A stretch of 64,000 nucleotides of DNA. Origin: a virus (taxonomy: Duplodnaviria > Caudoviricetes). Location of the stretch: IMG/VR virus record IMGVR_UViG_3300017913_001553, positions 8,027 through 72,026 of that record; one strand, 5' to 3'. Below, piece by piece: positions 50,944 to 63,346 of this stretch. Position 1 is the first letter of the stretch. Each line of letters begins with the position of its first letter. The notes under the pieces are model-generated. The model had not been told where the DNA came from and ran no database searches. It worked only from the letters and a program-made list of their open reading frames with translations. Made by a program: the position numbers and the translations under genes.

Positions 50944-51230
50944 TTATTGAAAAACCATATGATGTTGGTGACGTATTGAGCATCAAATTGTCAAGCGGTG
51001 AAGAAATGGTTTGCCGTTTAGAAAAAAAAGGTGAGAAAACGCTAACAGTTAAGAAACCTATGATGCTTGTTGCCGGACCAGATGGAGCAGGATTGGCACC
51101 ATTTATGTTCACAGTTGATCAAAACGCAAGTTTTAAAATTCAACTAAATAATGTTATCGTGGTAGTGAAAACCGCAAAAGATGCGGCAGACATGTACACC
51201 CAAGCAACAACAGGAATTGTAACAGTATAA
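50940..51230 (+). CDS. small beta protein (possible Sm-like fold)
   Basis: IKLSSGEE...L..PM.L...G...PF pattern. Confidence 0.45.
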   Translation: MIIEKPYDVGDVLSIKLSSGEEMVCRLEKKGEKTLTVKKPMMLVAGPDGAGLAPFMFTVDQNASFKIQLNNVIVVVKTAKDAADMYTQATTGIVTV

Positions 51231-51532
51231 TGCCAGCAGTAAGTCGCAAATCAGACAGTTTAAGTACAGGTCACGGTTGTGATGGATCAACTATTCTTGC
51301 GACACCTGCACAGGGTACTGTTTATGCTAATGGCAGATTGGTTGCCAGAATTACTGATAAAACAATTGTACACGCTATTCCAAGTGGTCCAGCGTGTGTA
51401 CCACACACCGAACAAGTACGTGCGGGTAGTGGAACAGTATATACCGAAGGACTAAAAACAGCACGTATTGGCGATGCCGCAGATGGTGGTAATATGACGA
51501 GTGGTTCGCCAAATGTTTATGCGGGCGGTTAA
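51230..51532 (+). CDS. PAAR spike-tip protein (T4 gp5.4-like)
   Basis: MPAVSR..D...GHGC; LVARITD; GSGTVY..G...ARIGD; GSPNVYAG. Confidence 0.9.
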   Translation: MPAVSRKSDSLSTGHGCDGSTILATPAQGTVYANGRLVARITDKTIVHAIPSGPACVPHTEQVRAGSGTVYTEGLKTARIGDAADGGNMTSGSPNVYAGG

Positions 51533-51540
51533 AAAATATA

Positions 51541-51569
51541 TTGACAATCGTGATTTTATTTGTTATAAA
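51541..51569 (+). promoter_or_regulatory. sigma70-like promoter of the tRNA cluster
   Basis: TTGACA, 17-nt spacer, TATAAA. Confidence 0.65.
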
Positions 51570-51596
51570 AGATAAATAAACATGGTAGTTAATAAT

Positions 51597-51672
51597 GCTC
51601 CTATAGCTCAGTTGGTAGAGCAACTGATTTGTAATCAGTAGGTCCGCGGTTCGAGTCCGTGTGGGAGCACCA
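51597..51672 (+). tRNA. tRNA-Thr(UGU)
   Basis: 76-nt cloverleaf; anticodon arm ACTGA-TTTGTAA-TCAGT; GGTTCGAG T-loop; encoded CCA. Confidence 0.95.
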
Positions 51673-51676
51673 TTAT

Positions 51677-51761
51677 GCGGTTGTGGTGGAATTGGTAGAC
51701 ACGCTAGATTTAGGTTCTAGTGCTTCACGGCGTGAGAGTTCGAGTCTCTCCAACCGCACCA
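51677..51761 (+). tRNA. tRNA-Leu(UAG)
   Basis: 85 nt with long variable arm; CTAGA-TTTAGGT-TCTAG; encoded CCA. Confidence 0.95.
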
Positions 51762-51871
51762 AATTATAAAAAATATTATATAGTACATTTTAATTAGTGG
51801 ACGTTACGATTAGGAAATTTTAATAATTGCGTAGGTTGCAAGACCCTATCATTTGGTAAAAAACTTGCTTT

Positions 51872-51947
51872 GGGGAATTAGCTCAGTTGGGAGAGCGTCT
51901 GATTTGCATTCAGAAGGTCATCGGTTCGATCCCGGTATTCTCCACCA
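51872..51947 (+). tRNA. tRNA-Ala(UGC)
   Basis: 76 nt; G3:U70 pair; TCTGA-TTTGCAT-TCAGA; encoded CCA. Confidence 0.95.
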
Positions 51948-51966: not shown

Positions 51967-52908
51967 ATGAATTATTTTGAACTACAACCAGAGGAAAACA
52001 CTTTTCTCAATATCGTTGTAGATTTGACACACAAGTGCAATATGGAATGTGCTAACTGCTATATTCCAAATAGAGATATCCCTGATCTAGATAAAGATCG
52101 TTTAGAGGATTTCTTGACACGACTTCCGTTTAGAACATATATTAGATTGATTGGTGCTGAACCAACCATGCGTGATGATTTGCCAGAAATTATTGCCATG
52201 GTTAAGCGGTTAGGGCATCGTCCTAGTCTAACAACAAACGGACTTAAATTGGCACATATGCCGTATACGCAGAGTCTTAAAGATGTTGGATTGCGTCTAA
52301 TGCTTCACAGTATGAATGGGGCAGACGATGATGAAGCATATAAAGTATTAGATATGGGTAAATGGGCAGAAGTAAAAACACGTGCTCTGGATAATATCTT
52401 GGCATGTCGTCTACCTATCAATACAGGGACAATTATCGCACGTGATGTAAATGAGCACTGTGTTCGTCGTCAGGTAGAAGTATTCGAAAAGTATTGTCTA
52501 AAGAATGATATCAACCTAGATACAACAGCACCTTACAATAGAATTACGCCAGTGTTGCGTATGAAAAGTGTCGGCAGTCTTGGTCGTAATATGGGGAGTG
52601 ATTTGGCATTGGGTATTTCTGAATTGGCAGAAATCGCATCAGAAGAATTTAGCATTCCAATTGATGAAATTATCGCAAGTAAAGTTAGCGCAGGTGTTGT
52701 AAAAGCAGGCAACTATGGCGAAGCATTAACTAGTTTAATGTTTCCAGTTCATACAGCAGCAGGTAAACTTTTTATCCGTTTAATTGATTGGAGTGTAAAC
52801 GACGAGGGTGTTATTGATCATGATAACCCTAATCGTGGTAGATTAACACAAGACTTTAAAGTAGCACCATTTTTTGAACACGTTAAGAGGAATGAGTTTG
52901 GGTATTGA
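51967..52908 (+). CDS. radical SAM enzyme (MoaA-like core, no SPASM cysteines)
   Basis: DLTHKCNMECANC, LIGAEPT, LTTNG. Confidence 0.88.
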   Translation: MNYFELQPEENTFLNIVVDLTHKCNMECANCYIPNRDIPDLDKDRLEDFLTRLPFRTYIRLIGAEPTMRDDLPEIIAMVKRLGHRPSLTTNGLKLAHMPYTQSLKDVGLRLMLHSMNGADDDEAYKVLDMGKWAEVKTRALDNILACRLPINTGTIIARDVNEHCVRRQVEVFEKYCLKNDINLDTTAPYNRITPVLRMKSVGSLGRNMGSDLALGISELAEIASEEFSIPIDEIIASKVSAGVVKAGNYGEALTSLMFPVHTAAGKLFIRLIDWSVNDEGVIDHDNPNRGRLTQDFKVAPFFEHVKRNEFGY

Positions 52909-53497
52909 GGTTTATACAGCAACACACAAGGATGCTGATTTTAAAGATTATTGTGCGGCAATAGATAGGTTCCATTTACATTTAGAGAAACATGGAACTA
53001 ATGATAAACTTATTGAAAATTATCGTCCAAAAAGATTACAGTCACGTGATAGTATTGGAATCACTGTTTACTTGGATGATGGAGCATTATTGGGATTTAG
53101 CACAGTAATCACACGTGATATTTTTGGCAATGGGACACGTGTATTAAATCGCTTTGTAAAATCTCCAGTGTATAGATTTGAAAATGAACGCCGTAGAGTT
53201 AGTCAAGAAACAAAAGATATGATACAGCAACAATTAACGATTAGTCGTGAATTAGGGTTTGACTATTCGTTTATGAGCCGTTATACTACTACAAATACAA
53301 GTAATTTTGACCATTATGGAAAACAGTTAACATTTGCTGAGTGGAAGAACGAACCGGGAAGATACTGCGTAACTGAAAACTTTCATCATAAAACAAGTTA
53401 CCAGCATCTTATCTGGACTAGTTTTAATGATAATGTAAAAGAATTACCTATGTATTGGATAAGTGATGGAGAGTTCAATGAACTTGAAGAATTGTAA
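52892..53497 (+). CDS. GNAT-fold acyltransferase-like protein
   Basis: LLGFS...RVLNRFVKSPVYR motif-A-like segment; apparent paralogue of 62789-63346; GAGG RBS. Confidence 0.45.
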   Translation: MSLGIEVYTATHKDADFKDYCAAIDRFHLHLEKHGTNDKLIENYRPKRLQSRDSIGITVYLDDGALLGFSTVITRDIFGNGTRVLNRFVKSPVYRFENERRRVSQETKDMIQQQLTISRELGFDYSFMSRYTTTNTSNFDHYGKQLTFAEWKNEPGRYCVTENFHHKTSYQHLIWTSFNDNVKELPMYWISDGEFNELEEL

Positions 53498-54323
53498 GTT
53501 TGGATATATGATTGAAGATTTAGACTTCAATGACTATGATCCAAAAGAGATATTAAATTTAGTCGGTGATGGACGTTTCGTTGTTATTAGAAACAATGAA
53601 AGGGTATTGCCATCGCAAATGGTAAAGTTATATAAAGAATTAGGTACAGTAGTATCCCAAAATGAAAAAGTAGAAAGTGCAGGAGTAGATGGGTTCCGTG
53701 AGTTGGTTAAGGTTCGTAGTAATGGTATGTTTACTGGTAACGATGATGGTGAGCTTGAATATCATTGCGCAGGGATGAGTCGCACAGGTGGCGAGGATAT
53801 CGTTGCAATGTATATGTATGACAAAGGAATAAGTGGTGGTATAACATATTATACAGATTCACAAACGGCATTTGACGATTTGAGTGATGATGTAAAAGAT
53901 TTGTGTAGAAAAGTAAATAGCAAAATATTAACATACAGCAAGAAAACAAAACTTGAAGGTAGTTACTACAAAAAGATTTTTAATGATGAACAGACCATGA
54001 TGGAATTTCGTGATCCTGATGGTGAAAAAGTTTTTTTCAAGCAAACCCCACGAAAACAATTAGTGATTGAACATCCAATTAATGGAAAAGAGGGATTATA
54101 TTTCCCATGGAGTGTGATTAGAGGATTTACTGGGTTGGACCCACAGGAACAAAAAGATTTATACAGTCATTTAAAACAGCATACACTAAAAGAAAAATAT
54201 GTGTATGCTCATGAATGGCAAAATAACGATATTATATTGAGTGATCAGCATCATAGTTTGCATAGACGTGATGCCTATGAAGGTGATCGTGAACTTTGGA
54301 GAGCAGGAATATGGTTGAATTAG
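53478..54323 (+). CDS. TauD/TfdA-family Fe(II)/2-oxoglutarate enzyme with HxA motif (candidate halogenase)
   Basis: YHCAG at the HxD position; GGITYYTD, HPING, HEWQNNDIILSDQ and LHRR...R motifs. Confidence 0.8.
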   Translation: MNLKNCKFGYMIEDLDFNDYDPKEILNLVGDGRFVVIRNNERVLPSQMVKLYKELGTVVSQNEKVESAGVDGFRELVKVRSNGMFTGNDDGELEYHCAGMSRTGGEDIVAMYMYDKGISGGITYYTDSQTAFDDLSDDVKDLCRKVNSKILTYSKKTKLEGSYYKKIFNDEQTMMEFRDPDGEKVFFKQTPRKQLVIEHPINGKEGLYFPWSVIRGFTGLDPQEQKDLYSHLKQHTLKEKYVYAHEWQNNDIILSDQHHSLHRRDAYEGDRELWRAGIWLN

Positions 54324-55009
54324 AATACGGTGAAATTGATAATATCAATATTCGTGAACAATTATTAGAGCATGGATTATTAGTAATCCGCAATGCTGAT
54401 ATCTCTATGGATGAATTTAAAGAACGTGTGACATCTATGGGTAAACCACTGGTTACAACAAAGCATGTGTTGGATGATGATCGTGTTGTTCAAGAATTAA
54501 GTGAAAATGGTTTGTTTAGTAACAATGATGTGGATTGGCACAATGATTGGAGTTACGGTAGAGGTAATTATTTTGGAACTGCCTTGCGAAATGTAGAAGG
54601 TGGTGAACTAAGTGAAACACATTTTTGTGATATGACAAAAATTCCACAAAGTATTATGCGTATGTACGAGGGCAAGGTAGGAAAATATTATCCACCGCAA
54701 TCATTACATGATGTCTGCTTTACTGAAAAACAGTTACGAATTTTGGAAAAGCAAAAAGTAGAGCGTCCAATAGTTATGGATCATCCAATTACTGGAACGC
54801 CTCTTGTATTCTGTAGTCCTGGAACAATACAAAATGATGATATTGACTTGATGCCAATTATTCTTTATGCAGATGTAGATGCGTATAATTACAAACACAA
54901 ATGGAAACCAAATGATATTCTTATTTGGGACAATTATAGAATGATGCACAGACGTATGGCATTTGAAGGACACCGACTATTGTGGAGAATTCAATTCACA
55001 TTAGAATAA
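54311..55009 (+). CDS. TauD/TfdA-family Fe(II)/2-oxoglutarate dioxygenase (canonical HxD...H)
   Basis: WHND, THF.D, HPITG, HKWKPNDILIWDN and MHRR...R motifs. Confidence 0.88.
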   Translation: MVELEYGEIDNINIREQLLEHGLLVIRNADISMDEFKERVTSMGKPLVTTKHVLDDDRVVQELSENGLFSNNDVDWHNDWSYGRGNYFGTALRNVEGGELSETHFCDMTKIPQSIMRMYEGKVGKYYPPQSLHDVCFTEKQLRILEKQKVERPIVMDHPITGTPLVFCSPGTIQNDDIDLMPIILYADVDAYNYKHKWKPNDILIWDNYRMMHRRMAFEGHRLLWRIQFTLE

Positions 55010-55401: not shown

Positions 55402-55932
55402 ATGTTTAAGAAATTCGCAATCACAGCAACTGCTATTATGATCACGTCAGCGGCAGCAGCACAATCAACTGCTTATGCTACAATTACAAAAGTAGTCCCT
55501 AATTACACAAACGGTGGAACAACTCAACAAGCATATCAGAGTTGTGAAATTGTTAGTGTGCCAGTTACTCGCACAGAAACTGTTCGTGAAGGCGGCAGTT
55601 CGGGTGAGGGAGCATTGGCAGGAATGATTATCGGTGGTATTCTTGGTAAAGGAGTATCTGGTAACGATAAAGGTGCGGCAGCAGGTGCTGTAATTGGTGG
55701 CATTATTGGTGCTGATAAAGGCGGTAATGGTCGTACAGTTGAGCGCAATGTGACACGATATGAAGATCGTGAAGTGTGTACGACAAAATATCGTACAGTC
55801 CATGGATCACGCCAGATCAAAAATTATAAGATTACCTATGAATGGGCTGGTGTAACTGGAACAAGTTATACTTATAATTCATATAATGTAGGTGATCAGA
55901 TTCCGGTAACTGTTTCTATTAACGCAAAGTAA
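55402..55932 (+). CDS. secreted glycine-zipper (2TM) protein, YcfJ-like
   Basis: Signal peptide; GALAGMIIGGILG...GAAAGAVIGGIIG. Confidence 0.8.
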   Translation: MFKKFAITATAIMITSAAAAQSTAYATITKVVPNYTNGGTTQQAYQSCEIVSVPVTRTETVREGGSSGEGALAGMIIGGILGKGVSGNDKGAAAGAVIGGIIGADKGGNGRTVERNVTRYEDREVCTTKYRTVHGSRQIKNYKITYEWAGVTGTSYTYNSYNVGDQIPVTVSINAK

Positions 55933-55941
55933 GAGGTTATT

Positions 55942-57375
55942 ATGTATCGCTCATTATTAGTTGGCATTGCTCTAACTACACTTGCCGCATGTCAAGCAAC
56001 AACTGCTAGTGATGTAACAATTGGTGCATCTTTTCAATCAACACCCCCATCGCCTGTGATAGTTGGTCAGTTAGAACCTCATCGCAAAAGTAAGCATGTT
56101 GATTATAGCGAAAAGCATAACTTTACCTATCAAAAAGGACGCTTCTTTGTTGATGGAATGAACACCTATAGACAGAAATACCTGTCGTTGTATGGTCCAT
56201 ATCGTGAGCGATATGAAGGCAACTATAATTTCGTCACCGCGATGAACTACATTTGGATACCGCGTGATGGATATGGAAGAACACGCTATCCATGTTTGGA
56301 TATCATTTACACGCCAGATTACACAATGACTATCAAGTTTGTTCAAACCCATGGTGACAGATTTGAAAATTCTGAACACTTTGATCGACATATGTATAGA
56401 AAATCAATGAATTGGTGTACAGATAAGGTGAAACGTCTTGTTCATGAGGACGTAATACGCGGTGAACGCCGAGGCGATGCCATAAAATATTTCTTTGAAA
56501 CTTTAATGCCGCGCTTTTTGAAAAATGACAGTTGGTTGAAACTTCCATTCGATCAATCGCAACCGGGCGAGGATTTCATCCCAGAACAAGGGGCGATTGA
56601 AGCGTTGCTATACACATACATTTATTTTAGCGATTGGTATGGAACAAGTGACGAACTAGACGAACTATTTGTAAGTTACTTCCGCAAGTATGAACGCACA
56701 CGCCACAAACAGATCAAAAGTGATCGTAACAAACATTTCATAACCAAATGCCCACGCAATATCTGGAATGCTCGTAGTAGTAGTCCAACCTCGACAGGAG
56801 ATGCTTTCTTGGCATGTAAGCAAGAGTTTTGGACTATGATGTATGCTATGATGGCGGTGCGCTTTCAAGATAACGATATGCTGAACGAAGCACTATTTTT
56901 CTACAAGCACAACGCGAAGTACACATTTGAAGAAGGTGCTACCATTGAGGTCACACGTGGATACAAAGGTCCAGGATATGCGATGATGGCAGCAGAGTTC
57001 TTTGATCAAGGTGCTTGGGTGATCGAAGCATTTACCGATGCTGAAGTTTATACGATTGAGGGTGGTGGCAAGTATAACAACACTGTTGGAAAGATGATTG
57101 AAAGCAGTATCGATGCTTTTACCAACCCACCTAAATACTACAAATACGCAAAGCAGTATAATCTCGGCACTAGACCTCACACAGACCCTGATCTTCCAAC
57201 AATTCCACACAACAATTACCGCATGGTTGGAGCGTTCTTAGATGGATCAAAGTCAGGAAAGTGGGATGAATATCTCAATAGCGTGGGTGATCGGGGATAC
57301 ACGATACGCTTGGCAATTGACCCTCTTTTGATGTCTCGAGCGTACAATTTTTCGCCAAGTTATCGCACCGATTAG
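55942..57375 (+). CDS. lipoprotein with possible alginate-lyase-like alpha/alpha fold
   Basis: Lipobox LTTLAAC; C-terminal EGATIEVTRG....Y resembles the PL5 G...E..R....Y motif. Confidence 0.45.
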   Translation: MYRSLLVGIALTTLAACQATTASDVTIGASFQSTPPSPVIVGQLEPHRKSKHVDYSEKHNFTYQKGRFFVDGMNTYRQKYLSLYGPYRERYEGNYNFVTAMNYIWIPRDGYGRTRYPCLDIIYTPDYTMTIKFVQTHGDRFENSEHFDRHMYRKSMNWCTDKVKRLVHEDVIRGERRGDAIKYFFETLMPRFLKNDSWLKLPFDQSQPGEDFIPEQGAIEALLYTYIYFSDWYGTSDELDELFVSYFRKYERTRHKQIKSDRNKHFITKCPRNIWNARSSSPTSTGDAFLACKQEFWTMMYAMMAVRFQDNDMLNEALFFYKHNAKYTFEEGATIEVTRGYKGPGYAMMAAEFFDQGAWVIEAFTDAEVYTIEGGGKYNNTVGKMIESSIDAFTNPPKYYKYAKQYNLGTRPHTDPDLPTIPHNNYRMVGAFLDGSKSGKWDEYLNSVGDRGYTIRLAIDPLLMSRAYNFSPSYRTD

Positions 57376-57513: not shown

Positions 57514-57549
57514 CCAATCTTCTATAAATATAATTATATGGGGGATTGG
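57514..57549 (+). promoter_or_regulatory. late promoter inside an RBS-sequestering hairpin
   Basis: TATAAATA at 57523-57530; 13-bp stem 57514-57526 / 57537-57549 covers the SD of the ATG at 57552. Confidence 0.65.
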
Positions 57550-57551
57550 AT

Positions 57552-58586
57552 ATGACTAGAAAAAGCATAAGAAAAGATATTCCACAAAAAAACTTTGAAC
57601 GTGTAATTCATATCGTAGACGAAGATACAGGATTAGATGCAATTATAGCAGTTCACAATACTAAACTAGGTCCTGCTATTGGTGGAATTAGACTTTATAA
57701 TTATACTTCATTTGAAGATCAATTAAATGATGCTCTTAGGTTAGCAAAAGGCATGACCTTTAAAAACGCCGCAGCGGGTATACATCATGGTGGTGCTAAA
57801 ACAGCGGTAAACGCTTCTAAAATTAAAGATAGAAAAGAAGCATACAGATTACTTGGCAAAATGGTCAATCTATTAGATGGTTCTTATATTTGCGCAGGCG
57901 ATGTAGGGACTACAAAAGATGATCTAATGGATGTAAATTTTGGTACAAGTTATGTAGCAGGTATTACATTGGATAGTAGTTTACCAACTGCCCTAGGGAC
58001 CAAAACGAGTATTGAGGCATTATTACATTTTAATAAACGTCAGATTTCAGATACAAGTTTTACTATACAAGGATTGGGAAAAGTTGGATGGAAACTGGCA
58101 ATGATGCTTATTGAAGGTGGCGGTGATGTTAGGGCATATGATCCATATTTTGATAAAATCTACAAAGAGTTTGAGCACCAAGTTGGCGATGGTGTAATTA
58201 CAGATTTAAGTGCCAGTGCTATTTTTACAGATGATAGTGATATGTATGTTCCTTGTGCTTTGGGTGGAGTTTTAAATATGAAAACTCTTAATACAATGAC
58301 ACAGAAACTAGTTTGTGGATCGGCAAATAATCAGTTTGAAAATGATTCGAGTGTAGCAATTGCCAAACATATGGGAATTCAATATGTTCCTGATTTTGTG
58401 GCAAATTGTGGTGGAGTTGTGGCAGTTGCATACGACTTTAATAAAAGAGATTATACAAAAAAATTAACAACTGAACTGTATGAAACTGTTTTAGAAATCT
58501 TAGAAGAAAGTAAAAAAACAGGATTTGCTCCGCAGATGATCGCTGAGAGTATTGCTAATCAGAGGATTAACAACGAGTATAGGTAA
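57552..58586 (+). CDS. Glu/Leu/Phe/Val amino-acid dehydrogenase (LeuDH-like)
   Basis: GPAIGGIR, LAKGMTFKNAAAG..GGAK, GDVGT, QGLGKVG, PCALG, GSANNQ and PDF.AN.GGV motifs. Confidence 0.92.
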   Translation: MTRKSIRKDIPQKNFERVIHIVDEDTGLDAIIAVHNTKLGPAIGGIRLYNYTSFEDQLNDALRLAKGMTFKNAAAGIHHGGAKTAVNASKIKDRKEAYRLLGKMVNLLDGSYICAGDVGTTKDDLMDVNFGTSYVAGITLDSSLPTALGTKTSIEALLHFNKRQISDTSFTIQGLGKVGWKLAMMLIEGGGDVRAYDPYFDKIYKEFEHQVGDGVITDLSASAIFTDDSDMYVPCALGGVLNMKTLNTMTQKLVCGSANNQFENDSSVAIAKHMGIQYVPDFVANCGGVVAVAYDFNKRDYTKKLTTELYETVLEILEESKKTGFAPQMIAESIANQRINNEYR

Positions 58587-60427
58587 TGACAAAAACCAAT
58601 GTCCTTATAGGAAGTTTCCAACCTAAAAGAATGAATTCAACAAGTAATTTCAACTGGCTGCCACACGCTGCCGGTTGTCTTATTTCATATGCACTGAAAT
58701 CAGATATTGTTAGGGAAAATATAAAATTTCTTGATCCTATTTTCAGATGTGATGATTTTTCGGTATATGATGATATTCTTAAGCAAACTGATATACTCTG
58801 TTTGACAAATTATGTTTGGAATCAAAAATATAATGACAACTTTTCAATACATTACAAAGCATTGAATCCAAATGGTATTGTTGTTTATGGTGGTGCGAGT
58901 GTTCCAGAAAATGCAGGTATTGCCCAAGAATATGCTCACAATAGACCGCAGGTTGATTTGTTCTTTGTTGGTCCTGGTGAAACTAATTTCACAAAATTTT
59001 TAGAAGATACAGATTCTTTTAATAGAAAAGAAACATATGGTGCGTTCAGTCGTGGATGGTCTAATGTGACAGTCAATAAAGATTTGTATAGTATTGGGTC
59101 TGATGATATCCCTCTTCCCTATGTTGATGGAATTTTTGATAATATTATTTCTAATTGTCCAGACAAATCAGTTGCCATTGCCTTTGAAACAACACGCGGA
59201 TGTCCATACAAATGTGCATTCTGTGATTGGGGTGGATTGAGTAGAAGTATTGTTACCAAATTCAATATAGATAAAATCAAACAAGCAGTTGATTGGATTT
59301 ATGAGAATGCTAACAAGATAACTCTTGTTGATTTTATTGATGCTAATCTTGGTATGGCAAGGCGTGATGTTGAGATACTTAAATATTTTATAGAGTGTAG
59401 TAAAAAATACAACAATCATGTTTTCATAAGTTTAAATGGATACGTAAAGAATGGCAGTCCTTATCTAAAAGAAACAATTGAATTAGTAGAACAATTGAAT
59501 ATCGCTGCCAAAGAATTTATGGATAGTGGTAGTGGAACAACTGGAAATGTTAAAAATAATAAAAGTATTACTAAGTCAGTAACAATGAGTTTCCAAAGCC
59601 ACAATAGCGAAGTGTTGGAAAAGATTGATCGTGGTAACATTGACAATAAGAAATTATTTCCTCTTGTTGAGGAGTTAAAAGAAAATGATATCATCATACG
59701 AAGCGAGATGATGATTGGATTGCCAGGAGATACCCCAGATGGTTACATCAAAAACTTAGAAGAAGATTACAGATTGGGTATTGGGTATATGAGAGCATAT
59801 CCAACCATAATTATTCCAAACACACCAATGTATGACCCAGAATACAGAAAGAAGCATGGATTAAAATTTAAAAAGGTTTTGCTACCATTTGATATTAATA
59901 TTTCTGATAATGAGGTATATAGACAAAATCCATTTGCTGAAACAACTTGTGACTTTGATGATGATTCATTGTTTGAGGAAATAGAATTGATGTATGAATG
60001 TGATACATTTACAAATGAACAGTTAGTTGAGATTTATAAATATTGGTGGTGGTATCATAACTTCTACAATTTAGAAGCATTGCGTGATGAAATCGCAGAA
60101 GCAGTATATCACGGTAGAAGTATTGAAACCCAAATAAGGACATTTTTTAACTTTATTGATCAGGGAAAAATGCCTGTATTGGAAAAAATACTTGACTTTT
60201 ATTTAAATACAGTTAGACTAGTATTTAAACCAGAGCCAATTACAAAATTAACGCACGTTTATCATAATAACTTTTTGCAATTGGGTATTAGAACAAATGA
60301 ACCATTATTCTTCGTAGAGCACAAAGATAAAATAGAAAAAGAACTGAGACAGATATATCCTACAGTAAACACTGACAAATGGATCAATGACCGTGGATTC
60401 TTTATGGATTATAGTATTCTTGATTAG
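58586..60427 (+). CDS. cobalamin-binding radical SAM enzyme
   Basis: N-terminal B12-binding-type region (YVWN, VYGG, D.F.VGPGE); ETTRGCPYKCAFCDWG; MIGLPGDT. Confidence 0.88.
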   Translation: MTKTNVLIGSFQPKRMNSTSNFNWLPHAAGCLISYALKSDIVRENIKFLDPIFRCDDFSVYDDILKQTDILCLTNYVWNQKYNDNFSIHYKALNPNGIVVYGGASVPENAGIAQEYAHNRPQVDLFFVGPGETNFTKFLEDTDSFNRKETYGAFSRGWSNVTVNKDLYSIGSDDIPLPYVDGIFDNIISNCPDKSVAIAFETTRGCPYKCAFCDWGGLSRSIVTKFNIDKIKQAVDWIYENANKITLVDFIDANLGMARRDVEILKYFIECSKKYNNHVFISLNGYVKNGSPYLKETIELVEQLNIAAKEFMDSGSGTTGNVKNNKSITKSVTMSFQSHNSEVLEKIDRGNIDNKKLFPLVEELKENDIIIRSEMMIGLPGDTPDGYIKNLEEDYRLGIGYMRAYPTIIIPNTPMYDPEYRKKHGLKFKKVLLPFDINISDNEVYRQNPFAETTCDFDDDSLFEEIELMYECDTFTNEQLVEIYKYWWWYHNFYNLEALRDEIAEAVYHGRSIETQIRTFFNFIDQGKMPVLEKILDFYLNTVRLVFKPEPITKLTHVYHNNFLQLGIRTNEPLFFVEHKDKIEKELRQIYPTVNTDKWINDRGFFMDYSILD

Positions 60428-60454
60428 AATATAAATTAATGATATAGTAATAAA

Positions 60455-61171
60455 ATGATTGGATTTAGTGAAGAAAAAAGTAAGCAGAAATATTCTGCTT
60501 TAATCGGACATGTTGTTTTGGTAGCACATACAATGCTATTGGGGTGGGTATATTTGCTATGGATCGTTCCTATCAGTCTGTTAGTATATCACCTTGGACA
60601 TAGTGTTTTTATGCATAGGCATTTAAGTCATGGGCAATTTAATTTTAGTCATAGAGTTCAGTATGTTCTTCATTATGTTTCTATAATTTGTAATATGGGG
60701 AAAATTCCAGGATATGTAGCAATCCACAAAGAGCATCACGTTTCTAGTGGAAGTGATCATGATCCGCATGAATTTAGAAAGCATGGGTTTTGGAATATAT
60801 TTTTCAGTAATTGGCACATTGAAACAAAACCAATCCACAAGAGATGGTTGGTTCAGAGTTTCAAACTTACACCATATGTTAAATTTTTCACAAACAATCA
60901 TTATAAAATTCTTTGGATACTTCTGCCTATTTTTGGTGGGATAACTGCTATGTCATGGTGGTGGAAGCAATTCAGTGTGATTGTGGTCCACTTAGATATT
61001 GGTGATCGTAGTCGTAGACGTGGTGTTGATACAAGCACAAATAATATATGGTTATGGCCTATTATGTGGGGGGATGAAAATCATACTGAACATCACCTGA
61101 ACGCATCGCGTGAACGTCTGTGTCGTATTGATCTTCAGTATTTTATGGGAAAGATATTAGAACGTGTCTGA
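60455..61171 (+). CDS. membrane fatty-acid desaturase (delta-9-like), short
   Basis: His boxes HRHLSH, HKEHH and HTEHH; DPH motif. Confidence 0.88.
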   Translation: MIGFSEEKSKQKYSALIGHVVLVAHTMLLGWVYLLWIVPISLLVYHLGHSVFMHRHLSHGQFNFSHRVQYVLHYVSIICNMGKIPGYVAIHKEHHVSSGSDHDPHEFRKHGFWNIFFSNWHIETKPIHKRWLVQSFKLTPYVKFFTNNHYKILWILLPIFGGITAMSWWWKQFSVIVVHLDIGDRSRRRGVDTSTNNIWLWPIMWGDENHTEHHLNASRERLCRIDLQYFMGKILERV

Positions 61172-61856
61172 TCTAACAAAGATACATACATTTGCTTTTC
61201 TTTCGCATTTGTTGACATTGGTTTATCTTTTTTATTTTCCAATATTAACTTTATTTGCGTTGGTGATTAGTTTACTTTGGTTTCATATTGGACACGGTGT
61301 GTTTATTCACAGATATTTTACACATCGTCATTTTGAGTTTAGTAAACTTGGTATCTTATTGGGGCATTTGTTTTACATTGGCACAAACATGGGACCTAGT
61401 ATAATGTGGGCAGGAATGCATATAAAACATCATACCAATAGTGGAACGGATGATGATCCCCATGAGTGGAGAAATGTTGGATGGATCAATGCTATCTTTA
61501 GCAATTACACTGATAGTTTTAGTGTTGACAAGCGTGTGGCAGTAAGGATGAGCAAGGAACCATATGTTAAGTTCTTTACAAAATATCATTATAAAATTCT
61601 AGCATTATATCTTATTCCACTTGCTCCAATTATAGCAATGAGTTTTTGGTGGAAGCAATTCACCACTATTGTGGTTCATACTGACTATGGTGATACTTCT
61701 GGTAGACGTGGAACTGATACAAGTGTAAATATTAATTGGTTACATTGGTTAATGTGGGGTGATGAAAAGCATACAGATCATCATAATAACCCAAGCAAAA
61801 AAGATATGGGGAATGACTATCTTTATAAACTAGGAAAGTTATGGGAGAAAATATGA
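61164..61856 (+). CDS. membrane fatty-acid desaturase (delta-9-like), short, second copy
   Basis: His boxes HRYFTH, HIKHH and HTDHH; GTG start overlapping the first copy. Confidence 0.88.
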   Translation: MSDLTKIHTFAFLSHLLTLVYLFYFPILTLFALVISLLWFHIGHGVFIHRYFTHRHFEFSKLGILLGHLFYIGTNMGPSIMWAGMHIKHHTNSGTDDDPHEWRNVGWINAIFSNYTDSFSVDKRVAVRMSKEPYVKFFTKYHYKILALYLIPLAPIIAMSFWWKQFTTIVVHTDYGDTSGRRGTDTSVNINWLHWLMWGDEKHTDHHNNPSKKDMGNDYLYKLGKLWEKI

Positions 61857-62542
61857 CAAAACCAATTATGCTTATAACTGGAACTTCCAGAGGTATTGGA
61901 AGTGCGGTCTATAATTATTTTAAAAATGATTATCAAGTGGTGGGTGTAAGCAGAACTGGAAATCCAGAATATAAAGGTGATCTAACTGATATTGAGTTTC
62001 GTAAAAAGATTATCAGTGAAGTTGATCCAGATGTTTTTGTAAATAACGCTGGAATATTAGATCATAATTTTATGAATGTAATAGAAACAAATTTGGTAGC
62101 ATCTGGGCATTTACTTACGGAATTTTATAAAAAAATGAAAGATGGTAGTATTATTATCAATATGTCTAGTTCATGTGCTGTTATGCATGGCACACCTAGT
62201 ATGACTAATTGGAGACTGTCATATCACACTGCTAAAAGTGCTCTTAAAAAATTAAGTGAAAATTTAAGTGAGCAACGAGTACGAAATATAAGAGTTACTA
62301 GTTTGGAACCTGCTCACGTTGATACTCTAATGACATGTGGTGGTCGAGGTGAATTATGGAACTTTTCAGAAGAAGAATATCAACAGGCAGATATAGATAA
62401 ATTCTTACCTATGTCACCAGAATATATTGCACAGACTATAGAATGGATTTTAGATCAACCTAAGTGGGTTCAAATAAGTAGTATGAGAATACTAAATTTA
62501 CATAATAGGGAACTGGCAGATATGCCAGTGAATACAAAATGA
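61853..62542 (+). CDS. short-chain dehydrogenase/reductase
   Basis: TGTSRGIG, NNAG, MSS and YHTAK (YxxxK) motifs. Confidence 0.92.
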   Translation: MTKPIMLITGTSRGIGSAVYNYFKNDYQVVGVSRTGNPEYKGDLTDIEFRKKIISEVDPDVFVNNAGILDHNFMNVIETNLVASGHLLTEFYKKMKDGSIIINMSSSCAVMHGTPSMTNWRLSYHTAKSALKKLSENLSEQRVRNIRVTSLEPAHVDTLMTCGGRGELWNFSEEEYQQADIDKFLPMSPEYIAQTIEWILDQPKWVQISSMRILNLHNRELADMPVNTK

Positions 62543-62802
62543 CAACATTGATTATTAAAACAACACGTGAACCAGGATGGTTAGATGATTACCGTGAAGG
62601 TCTGGTCAGAAGTTTCATGAGTGATGAAGATGTTGCTTCATTAGAGTCTGCAATCCCAAAAGATAAAAAGAAATATCTTGACGGTGATTTTATGGTTATT
62701 GAAGCAAGTTTTGATCAACATAGAGATGCATTAAGATGTTTGAGTAAAATTAGAAAGTTACAAATTCCAGGATTTACGGTGACTGTGGATGTTGTTAAGT
62801 GA
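62539..62802 (+). CDS. small hypothetical protein
   Basis: ATGA-coupled within the operon; no ACP DSL motif. Confidence 0.55.
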   Translation: MTTLIIKTTREPGWLDDYREGLVRSFMSDEDVASLESAIPKDKKKYLDGDFMVIEASFDQHRDALRCLSKIRKLQIPGFTVTVDVVK

Positions 62803-63346
62803 AATTTATGACAAACCCAATCAAGAACTATTTGAGTATTGGGCATATCAGCAATATTGGTGCGAAGATCATAACAAGGATTGGTTTGACGTATTATTAG
62901 TAAACCCAAAATATGAAAAGTATTGGATACTTCGTGATGATGATACAAAAGATATCGCTGCCTTTAGTTGTATTCAGTTTGTAGAATTCCCAGAATATAC
63001 TTGTCGCATAGGGACGAGAACGTTTATTGATCCAGAATATAGAAATAAATCTTCCAGTAGGGAAACGCAGAAAATTACTCCAATGTTTAGGATGTTAACT
63101 GAACAATACGATTGGGTGAAGGAAAATACTGACAAGGAAAATTGTTTTAGTAGTATGGAAAAAGGTCGCACTGCTGCTATGAGAGCAAGTGCAAGGAAGT
63201 TTAAAAAGTTAAATGGCGTTGATGCAGAAGTGTTGCCCTATAGATACAAAATGTTTAACAACACAACCCATCCAAGTTGTTACCAACAGGTATTATTGTT
63301 TCCAATAAAATCAAAAAAATTTGAATTAAATTGGATTATTTCGTAA
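62789..63346 (+). CDS. GNAT-fold acyltransferase-like protein
   Basis: IAAFS...RIGTRTFIDPEYR motif-A-like segment; apparent paralogue of 52892-53497. Confidence 0.55.
   Translation: MLLSEIYDKPNQELFEYWAYQQYWCEDHNKDWFDVLLVNPKYEKYWILRDDDTKDIAAFSCIQFVEFPEYTCRIGTRTFIDPEYRNKSSSRETQKITPMFRMLTEQYDWVKENTDKENCFSSMEKGRTAAMRASARKFKKLNGVDAEVLPYRYKMFNNTTHPSCYQQVLLFPIKSKKFELNWIIS

What the first reader, a model, noticed from the sequence alone, without database searches (positions are those of the whole stretch)
53478..55009. Candidate Fe(II)/2-oxoglutarate halogenase (HxA) paired with a canonical hydroxylase (HxD)
Seen: the adjacent paralogues align as NGMFTGNDDGELEY-H-C-A-G and NGLFSNNDVDW-H-N-D-W. The first has Ala (codon GCA, 53769-53771) where the iron-binding Asp belongs, while keeping the distal His (LHRR), the 2OG-binding Thr (GGITYYTD) and the Arg. 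Established: replacing the facial-triad carboxylate with Ala or Gly is the hallmark of 2OG-dependent halogenases (SyrB2 and CytC3 HxA; WelO5, BesD and AdeV HxG), because it opens a site for halide. Inference: a viral radical halogenase in the TauD fold with a sister hydroxylase acting on the same or a sequential substrate. The substrate (amino acid, acyl chain or nucleotide) is unknown.
Basis: partly seen in the sequence, partly recalled or inferred. Interest (0 to 1): 0.88.

Follow-up and report, generated by a model that had tools for sequence, protein, structure and literature searches.

The report
Candidate marine-phage TauD-fold iron halogenase
A marine phage enzyme of the iron/2-oxoglutarate family has replaced one of its three iron-holding residues with alanine, and all its close relatives keep that change, as known chlorinating enzymes do; it may be the first viral enzyme of that kind, but without an assay this is roughly an even bet.

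Summary
ORF A (53478-54323) and ORF B (54311-55009) are both TauD-family Fe(II)/2OG proteins. ORF A reads H96-C-A98 where ORF B reads H-N-D. It keeps the distal His262, Thr123, Arg271 and Arg275.

The Ala is not an error or a one-off. It is invariant in 75 homologues down to 46% identity, with GCA, GCT and GCC codons all in use. These form a well-supported, virus-restricted clade. The clade sits in a conserved four-gene cassette: radical SAM, GNAT, HxA-TauD, HxD-TauD.

The halogenase reading is plausible but unproven, at about 0.45. Three things count against it:
- The sister clade mostly carries Asn at the same position, with scattered Asp, His and Cys, so this ligand position varies for reasons other than halide binding.
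- AspH is a known 2-His hydroxylase.
- Two His residues specific to the HxA clade lie just before the distal His and could reach the vacated site.

I could not read model coordinates, so active-site geometry is untested. The two TauD genes are distant paralogues (24% identity), not sisters. The substrate is unknown.

This scan has flagged the same HxA/HxD pair in other phage genomes, and one follow-up there also called it an even bet.

The parts
51967..52908 (+). Radical SAM enzyme (313 aa), first gene of the conserved cassette
   Evidence: Pfam Radical_SAM at E 2.9e-11. Best NCBIfam matches are TrsS, MoaA and Tes, all below their cut-offs. The closest solved relative is the tetraether-lipid synthase GDGT-MAS, E 1.3e-12. 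It is syntenic with the HxA gene in all 25 loci where the HxA protein is at least 48% identical.
52892..53497 (+). GNAT-fold protein (about 201-207 aa), with no Pfam, PHROG or NCBIfam match
   Evidence: AF2 model built on a 23-sequence alignment, mean pLDDT 89.2. Foldseek matches GNAT N-acetyltransferases such as Ta0374, ArsN, phosphinothricin acetyltransferase and YncA, at probability 1.0 and TM about 0.45-0.52. It always lies between the radical SAM and HxA genes.
53478..54323 (+). TauD-fold Fe(II)/2OG protein with a 2-His (HxA) iron site (281 aa): the candidate halogenase
   Evidence: Pfam TauD at 87.7 bits. AF2 mean pLDDT 91.2. VIA Z 26-27 to PlaO1, TauD and AtsK. HxA is invariant in 75 homologues.
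53763..53771 (+). His96-Cys97-Ala98 codons (CAT TGC GCA): the proximal iron ligand, and Ala at the carboxylate position
   Evidence: Ala codons in distinct homologous loci: GCA 12, GCT 11, GCC 3.
54249..54302 (+). His258-His259 (specific to the HxA clade), distal ligand His262, Arg271 (aligns with the 2OG-binding Arg) and Arg275 (aligns with the substrate-anion Arg)
   Evidence: H262, R264, R271 and R275 are invariant. H259 is His in 98% of HxA proteins, against 18% of HxN proteins and rarely in canonical ones. The equivalence to TauD R266 and R270 rests on the shared R-x-x-x-R pattern and on prior knowledge of TauD.
54311..55009 (+). Canonical TauD-fold Fe(II)/2OG oxygenase (232 aa; H77-N-D79, H213, R222, R226), last gene of the cassette
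   Evidence: Pfam TauD at 84.6 bits. The WH[NH]DWSYG motif is conserved in every partner gene. It overlaps ORF A by 13 nt. In four loci it is separated from the HxA gene by one extra ORF.

Best explanation
ORF A encodes an active TauD-fold Fe(II)/2-oxoglutarate enzyme. Its iron is held by only two protein ligands (His96 and His262), because the usual Asp is Ala98.

**Proposed mechanism.** In the chloride-rich cytoplasm of a marine host, chloride fills the freed coordination site. Decarboxylation of 2OG then gives a cis-chloro-oxo-Fe(IV) species. This abstracts a hydrogen from an unactivated carbon of a small anionic substrate held by Arg275, and the chlorine rebounds onto the carbon. That is radical halogenation.

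**Pathway.** The enzyme works within a four-gene phage pathway with a radical SAM enzyme, a GNAT acyltransferase and a canonical HxD TauD oxygenase. The HxD enzyme acts on the same scaffold before or after chlorination.

**Shown:** the fold, the ligand set, its conservation, the cassette, and the viral and marine origin.

**Inferred:** iron and 2OG binding, chloride as the third ligand, halogenation as the outcome, and the substrate class.
For: 1. Ala sits exactly at the carboxylate-ligand position in alignments to RdpA and CarC and to ORF B.
2. It is invariant in 75 homologues down to 46% identity. It is inferred to be ancestral for a clade of 12 representative clusters (each cluster at 50% identity) with support 1.0. 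Three synonymous Ala codons are in use, which indicates selection for Ala.
3. His96, His262, Arg264, Arg271 and Arg275 are invariant and Thr123 is 96% conserved. This is expected of a working Fe/2OG site, not a decayed one.
4. The confident model (pLDDT 91) superposes on TauD, PlaO1 and AtsK at Z 26-27, rmsd 2.2-2.8 A over 241-255 residues.
5. The gene sits in a conserved biosynthesis-like cassette in every one of the 25 loci where the protein is at least 48% identical.
6. The source is seawater (Tara records), so chloride is abundant.
7. From prior knowledge: several unrelated Fe/2OG lineages (SyrB2/CytC3, WelO5, BesD, AdeV, the plant enzyme DAH) became halogenases through this same Asp-to-Ala/Gly change.
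Against: 1. The sister clade is dominated by Asn at the same position (54 Asn, 14 Asp, 3 Ala and 2 His among representatives), with at least 18 state changes. Loss of the carboxylate in this viral family therefore does not by itself imply halide binding.
2. AspH shows that a natural 2-His Fe/2OG enzyme can be a hydroxylase, with water in the vacant site.
3. His258 and His259, specific to the HxA clade, lie 4 and 3 residues before the distal His. Met100 is also clade-specific. In SyrB2 and AspH the -4 position borders the vacated site (AspH; SyrB2: from memory). One of these residues could therefore ligate the iron or hold a water molecule.
4. Neither halide binding nor active-site geometry could be examined.
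5. No substrate is known, and no partner that would use a chlorinated intermediate was recognised.
Confidence: 0.45

Rival explanations
1. ORF A is a non-halogenating oxygenase with an altered iron site. It is an active Fe/2OG hydroxylase, desaturase or similar oxidase. The vacated position is taken by water (as in AspH), by an anionic group of the substrate, or by a clade-specific side chain such as His258 or His259, which would give a 3-His site. The Ala reflects substrate or redox tuning, not halide use.
For: - AspH is a precedent.
- The related viral clades carry Asn, His or Cys at the same position. These would fill the site rather than open it, so the family tolerates non-carboxylate ligation.
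- His259 is 98% conserved in HxA proteins and His258 79%.
- Arg275 aligns with the Arg that binds the substrate's anionic group in TauD-type enzymes, so an anionic substrate near the iron is likely (the role is from prior knowledge).
Against: - His at position 259 also occurs in 36% of in-clade HxD proteins and 18% of HxN proteins, which already have a third ligand. That fits a second-sphere role better than a ligand role.
- No conserved carboxylate lies 3-4 residues before the distal His, where AspH has Asp721.
- Most characterised natural HxA/G enzymes are halogenases (prior knowledge).
Confidence: 0.35
2. ORF A is a non-catalytic paralogue. It no longer holds iron productively and serves as a substrate-binding, regulatory or structural partner, for example of the adjacent HxD enzyme.
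For: - In TauD, FIH and prolyl hydroxylase, mutating the carboxylate ligand inactivates the enzyme (stated in PMC10915816).
- ORF A is always encoded beside a canonical TauD oxygenase.
Against: - Both His ligands, the two Arg and the Thr are invariant or nearly so across a deep clade. A protein that no longer bound iron and 2OG would not be expected to keep them.
- Related HxA genes also occur without an HxD partner (L023-L026, L058).
Confidence: 0.08
3. The Ala is a one-off inactivating mutation or a sequencing or assembly error in this record.
For: None found.
Against: - HxA is present in all 75 homologues and in 26 distinct loci with three different Ala codons.
- Contigs from an independent study cover the gene.
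Confidence: 0.01

Closest known systems
TauD/TfdA-family Fe(II)/2OG dioxygenases (E. coli TauD, AtsK, RdpA/AAD-1, PlaO1, CarC)
   Same: - Same Pfam family.
- Same fold: Z 26-27, with 14-19% identity for the top structural matches.
- Same proximal and distal His, the same Thr, and the same R-x-x-x-R pair.
   Different: - The Asp of HxD is Ala.
- The conserved Trp of the WDN motif (TauD W248 by my numbering) is Ser, and the Asn is Gln.
- Met100, Asn101 (Ser in the window protein), Arg102, Met111, Met113, His258 and His259 are specific to the HxA clade.
- The solved relatives whose motif I read (RdpA, CarC) carry HxD.
Fe(II)/2OG halogenases (SyrB2, CytC3: HxA; WelO5, BesD, AdeV: HxG)
   Same: - A 2-His iron site made by replacing the carboxylate with a small residue.
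- The 2OG-binding residues are kept.
- The gene sits among biosynthetic tailoring genes.
- No carrier-protein gene is nearby, which resembles the free-substrate class (BesD, WelO5, AdeV).
   Different: - There is no detectable sequence relationship to them. No halogenase appears among the 53 PDB sequence matches of the family profile.
- If ORF A is a halogenase, it is an independent origin inside PF02668, and it is viral.
- Halide binding and the second-sphere features that steer rebound are untested.
AspH (human aspartate/asparagine beta-hydroxylase), a 2-His Fe/2OG hydroxylase
   Same: It lacks the facial-triad carboxylate yet is catalytically active.
   Different: - It belongs to a different fold subfamily (Asp_Arg_Hydrox).
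- AspH holds a water ligand with Asp721, four residues before its distal His. Here that position is His258, and no conserved carboxylate lies at -3 or -4.
TauD-like protein of Pelagibacter phage Mosig EXVC030M (annotated as a putative taurine catabolism dioxygenase)
   Same: - It is the only match (28% identity) among 50,697 deposited phage records.
- It is marine.
- It sits in an island with FA-desaturase, N-acetyltransferase and Asp_Arg_Hydrox genes.
   Different: - It carries W-H-S-N-G (HxN), not HxA.
- It has no radical SAM-GNAT-HxA-HxD cassette.

Membership tests
TauD/TfdA family (PF02668) Fe(II)/2OG dioxygenases | Match to the family profile above the curated cut-off | tested here: met
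   87.7 bits against a cut-off of 27 for ORF A, and 84.6 bits for ORF B.
TauD/TfdA family (PF02668) Fe(II)/2OG dioxygenases | TauD-type double-stranded beta-helix fold | tested here: met
   AF2 pLDDT 91.2. VIA Z 27.2 to PlaO1 (rmsd 2.2 A, 241 aligned) and Z 26.5 to TauD (rmsd 2.7 A, 248 aligned).
TauD/TfdA family (PF02668) Fe(II)/2OG dioxygenases | His-X-Asp/Glu...His facial triad | tested here: not met
   ORF A has H96-C-A98...H262. ORF B meets it, with H77-N-D79...H213.
TauD/TfdA family (PF02668) Fe(II)/2OG dioxygenases | 2OG-binding Thr and Arg | tested here: met
   By alignment only. T123 is 96% conserved and aligns with the Thr of GGDT. R271 and R275 are invariant.
Fe(II)/2OG-dependent halogenases (a functional class with several independent origins) | Facial-triad carboxylate replaced by Ala or Gly, and conserved among orthologues | tested here: met
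   Ala in 75 of 75 homologues and in 10 of the 12 representative clusters of the clade.
Fe(II)/2OG-dependent halogenases (a functional class with several independent origins) | Halide coordinated to the iron; halide-dependent product formation | not testable with these tools
   Needs biochemistry or a structure with ligands.
Fe(II)/2OG-dependent halogenases (a functional class with several independent origins) | No protein side chain fills the vacated site; a pocket is present for the halide | not testable with these tools
   Model coordinates are not readable here. His258, His259 and Met100 are candidates for filling or lining the site.
Fe(II)/2OG-dependent halogenases (a functional class with several independent origins) | Homology to a characterised halogenase lineage | tested here: inconclusive
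   None appears among the PDB sequence matches. The structural lists show only the best 50 entries. This feature is not required, because the class has several independent origins.
AspH-like 2-His hydroxylases | A second-sphere carboxylate near the distal His that holds an iron-bound water | tested here: inconclusive
   Positions -4 and -3 are His258 and His259, not Asp or Glu. Asp256 is the family-wide Asp of the WDN motif. Geometry was not examined.

The most novel reading that the evidence does not exclude
Marine phages encode a radical halogenase that arose independently inside the TauD fold. Together with a radical SAM enzyme, a GNAT and a second oxygenase, it makes a chlorinated small molecule during infection. 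This would be the first viral Fe/2OG halogenase, and a viral input to marine organohalogen chemistry.
Probability: 0.4. Interest if true: 0.88.

Novelty: new variant of a known kind. Interest (0 to 1): 0.72.

Why it matters
- **If ORF A is a halogenase.** It would be a new, independently evolved lineage of radical halogenases, in a small and well-behaved fold, acting on a free substrate. It would also be the first from a virus. That is of interest for C-H functionalisation biocatalysis and for what phages synthesise inside marine hosts.
- **If it is not.** A deep, conserved 2-His (HxA) clade next to a large HxN clade would still show that viral TauD-like enzymes have widely abandoned the canonical carboxylate ligand. 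That is itself unexplained chemistry.
- **For virome annotation.** Virome studies count viral 'tauD' as a sulfur-cycling auxiliary gene (for example PMC8940887). Many of the viral genes seen here lack the canonical triad and sit in biosynthetic cassettes, so that annotation is doubtful for them.

Tried and rejected
- **DNA similarity to deposited phages.** Megablast of the region found only a tRNA match. tblastn of ORF A found one 28% relative, in phage Mosig.
- **Homologues of the GNAT.** The word-based search found only one near-identical protein. I built its alignment from syntenic loci instead.
- **Known halogenases.** None appeared in the Foldseek list shown (ranks to 49), the 50 VIA entries shown, or the 53 PDB profile matches. 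This says only that the fold family is TauD. It does not show that halogenation is absent.
- **Promoters and terminators.** The scans were at chance level. The T4-late-like TATAAATA motif is not enriched (8 found, 9 expected) and none lies just upstream of the cassette.
- **Expression.** One metatranscriptome run holds two short contigs, 90-95% alike, over part of the radical SAM and GNAT genes only. This is not evidence for or against transcription.
- **Cellular genomes.** The scan of 185,579 species genomes used motifs specific to the HxA clade. It found two distant loci at 26% identity. The one I read is HxN, on a 9-kb MAG contig. My translation of the other was out of frame and I did not pursue it.
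- **Literature.** I found no paper on a TauD-family (PF02668) halogenase, a viral Fe/2OG halogenase or this cassette. The library is incomplete.
- **One-off mutation or sequencing error.** Rejected.
- **An alternative carboxylate.**
  - Glu94, two residues before His96, is only 78% conserved and is Leu, Val, Ile or Phe in some HxA proteins.
  - Glu92, Asp127, Asp251 and Asp256 are also common at the same columns in the HxN and HxD groups.
  - Glu272 follows Arg271 on a strand, so it should point away from the site (inference).
  - None is a convincing substitute, but no distances were measured.
- **Complex prediction.** I did not run it for the HxA and HxD pair. I do not claim that they bind, and a pass could arise from likeness to TauD homodimers.

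Full report
**The window and the genes.** The window comes from a 72-kb IMG/VR viral record estimated to be about 20% complete. It encodes a tail sheath, a large terminase, helicases and ribonucleotide reductase. Its terminase is closest (57%) to Pseudomonas jumbo phage PA5oct. Near-identical DNA occurs in seawater metagenomes from two studies.

Downstream of three tRNA genes (Thr, Leu, Ala), four overlapping plus-strand ORFs follow:
- a radical SAM enzyme at 51967-52908;
- a protein with no family match at 52892-53497;
- ORF A at 53478-54323;
- ORF B at 54311-55009.

Both ORF A and ORF B match Pfam TauD well above the cut-off. They align at 24% identity, with YHCAG of ORF A opposite WHNDW of ORF B. 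Alignments to solved structures put the same YHCAG on WHTD of RdpA and FHADG of CarC. Ala98 (GCA, 53769-53771) therefore occupies the carboxylate-ligand position.

His96, His262, Arg264, Arg271 and Arg275 are invariant in the family alignment, and Thr123 is nearly so. An AlphaFold2 model has mean pLDDT 91.2. It superposes on PlaO1, TauD, AtsK and RdpA at Z 26-27 and rmsd 2.2-2.8 A over 241-255 residues.

**The Ala is not an accident.**
- A search of 5.8 billion proteins returned 75 homologues of 46-97% identity. Every one has H-[SCN]-A.
- In 26 distinct loci the Ala codon is GCA (12), GCT (11) or GCC (3). The residue has therefore been kept through synonymous turnover.
- A profile search of 1.84 billion representatives, followed by a tree, places the query in a clade of 12 representative clusters. 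Ten carry Ala, one Cys and one Glu. Support is 1.0, and Ala is the inferred ancestral state.
- The nearest Atlas clusters are about 90% viral.
- A scan of 185,579 cellular species genomes with clade-specific motifs found only two loci, at 26% identity.
- No deposited phage genome other than Mosig (28%, HxN) has a relative.

**The cassette.** In all 25 loci where the HxA protein is at least 48% identical, the order is radical SAM, small protein, HxA, HxD, all on one strand. Four of these loci have one extra ORF before the HxD gene. The partner always reads WH[NH]DWSYG.

The small protein folds confidently (pLDDT 89.2) into a GNAT fold. Its best matches are N-acetyltransferases, including ArsN and phosphinothricin acetyltransferase, which acetylate amino-acid analogues. 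The closest solved relative of the radical SAM enzyme is the tetraether-lipid synthase, then PqqE and MoaA.

Flanking genes differ between phages. They include:
- B12-radical SAM enzymes, a carbamoyltransferase, a nucleotidyltransferase and a HAD hydrolase;
- small Asp_Arg_Hydrox proteins;
- faint sulfotransferase and APS-kinase matches;
- in this window, an ELFV-type dehydrogenase, a B12-radical SAM enzyme, two desaturase-like proteins and an SDR.

More distant HxA genes stand without the cassette. Some lie beside DNA polymerase and sugar-nucleotide genes (L023, L024). One lies beside Asp_Arg_Hydrox (L058). The Glu-bearing member sits among at least eight radical SAM genes (L055). The substrate cannot be deduced from these contexts. 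The invariant Arg275 aligns with the Arg that binds the anionic group of the substrate in TauD-type enzymes, which suggests a small anionic molecule (inference).

**What weakens the halogenase reading.**
1. *The position varies across the family.* Among the 150 nearest representatives the states are HxD 68, HxN 57, HxA 17, HxE 2, HxH 2 and HxC 1.
   - In the tree of the 139 near-full-length representatives, the canonical proteins (53 Asp, 1 Glu) fall outside.
   - The HxA clade's sister is an Asn-dominated clade (54 Asn, 14 Asp, 3 Ala, 2 His) with at least 18 state changes.
   - The whole non-canonical group has also lost the Trp of the WDN motif, which reads SDQ here.
   - Asn, His or Cys would occupy the site rather than open it. 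This viral family has therefore moved away from the carboxylate for reasons that need not involve halide.
2. *AspH is a counter-example.* It is a natural Fe/2OG hydroxylase with only two His ligands. A water molecule held by Asp721, four residues before its distal His, takes the vacant position (PMC10915816).
3. *Clade-specific residues could fill the site.* The HxA clade has its own conserved residues: Met100, Asn101 (Ser in the window protein), Arg102, Met111, Met113, His258 and His259.
   - His258 and His259 lie 4 and 3 residues before His262, in the loop that borders the vacated site in AspH and, from memory, in SyrB2.
   - They could hydrogen-bond a halide or a water molecule, or bind the iron directly.
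   - His259 also occurs in 36% of in-clade HxD proteins and 18% of HxN proteins, which already have a third ligand. That favours a second-sphere role.

**Verdict.** The sequence facts are solid and the family is new to the literature I could search. My estimates are:
- radical halogenase, about 0.45;
- non-halogenating oxygenase with a water, substrate or His-filled site, about 0.35;
- non-catalytic partner, about 0.08;
- error or one-off mutation, excluded.

ORF B is a distant paralogue from the canonical part of the family, not a sister of ORF A.

Earlier notes of this scan flagged the same HxA/HxD pair in several other phage genomes. One follow-up there independently reached an even-bet verdict. 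I reached mine from my own searches.

Viral 'tauD' is widely counted as a sulfur auxiliary metabolic gene. These results argue that such annotations should be checked against the iron-ligand motif.

Noticed in passing
Loci L031-L050; proteins P0077, P0084-P0225 (many); L062:3755-4561: A large family of mostly viral TauD-like proteins carries Asn (W-H-x-N-G) at the carboxylate-ligand position. It accounts for 57 of the 150 nearest representative clusters. Asp, His (W-H-T-H-H) and Cys variants are scattered among them. The cultured Pelagibacter phage Mosig has one, annotated as a taurine dioxygenase. I know of no characterised 2OG oxygenase with a His-X-Asn site.
   Followed up: partly
window 57546-63346: A second enzyme block lies downstream:
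- an ELFV-type amino-acid dehydrogenase, best matched by tryptophan dehydrogenase ScyB (212 bits, below cut-off);
- a B12-radical SAM enzyme of the KedN5 C-methyltransferase type;
- two short fatty-acid-desaturase-like proteins;
- an SDR;
- a 185-aa protein that aligns weakly (19%) with the cassette's GNAT.

Distant versions of the desaturase-like, GNAT-like, TauD-like and B12-radical SAM genes cluster again in L048-L050.
   Followed up: partly
window 55402-57375: Two predicted secreted or lipoproteins separate the two enzyme blocks. One is 176 aa, with a signal-peptide-like N-terminus and a weak glycine-zipper match. The other is 477 aa, with an LAAC lipobox-like N-terminus and no family match.
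   Followed up: no
L055 (Logan contig, 36.9 kb): The only Glu-bearing (H-N-E) member of the HxA clade sits in a run of at least eight radical SAM genes, with an AMP-binding protein and a 2OG-FeII_Oxy protein.
   Followed up: no
L023:4375-6151 and L024:5959-9674: More distant HxA genes (W-H-N-A, 45-46% identical) lie directly after a family-B DNA polymerase, as a tandem pair in L023. In L024 the gene is followed by cytidylyltransferase-like, phosphomannomutase and NAD-epimerase/dehydratase genes. No radical SAM, GNAT or HxD partner is present.
   Followed up: partly
L051:3223-4290, L052:5626-6693: These distant relatives read W-H-S-A-E, with a Glu one residue after the Ala. That Glu might restore a carboxylate ligand from a shifted position.
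   Followed up: no
window 51230-51947: A PAAR-motif protein (51230-51532) and three tRNA genes (Thr-TGT, Leu-TAG, Ala-TGC) lie immediately upstream of the cassette.
   Followed up: no
L004, L005, L058, L062: Small (152-205 aa) Asp_Arg_Hydrox-family proteins recur near the viral TauD-like genes. This is the family of AspH and LpxO. I did not check whether they also have 2-His sites.
   Followed up: no
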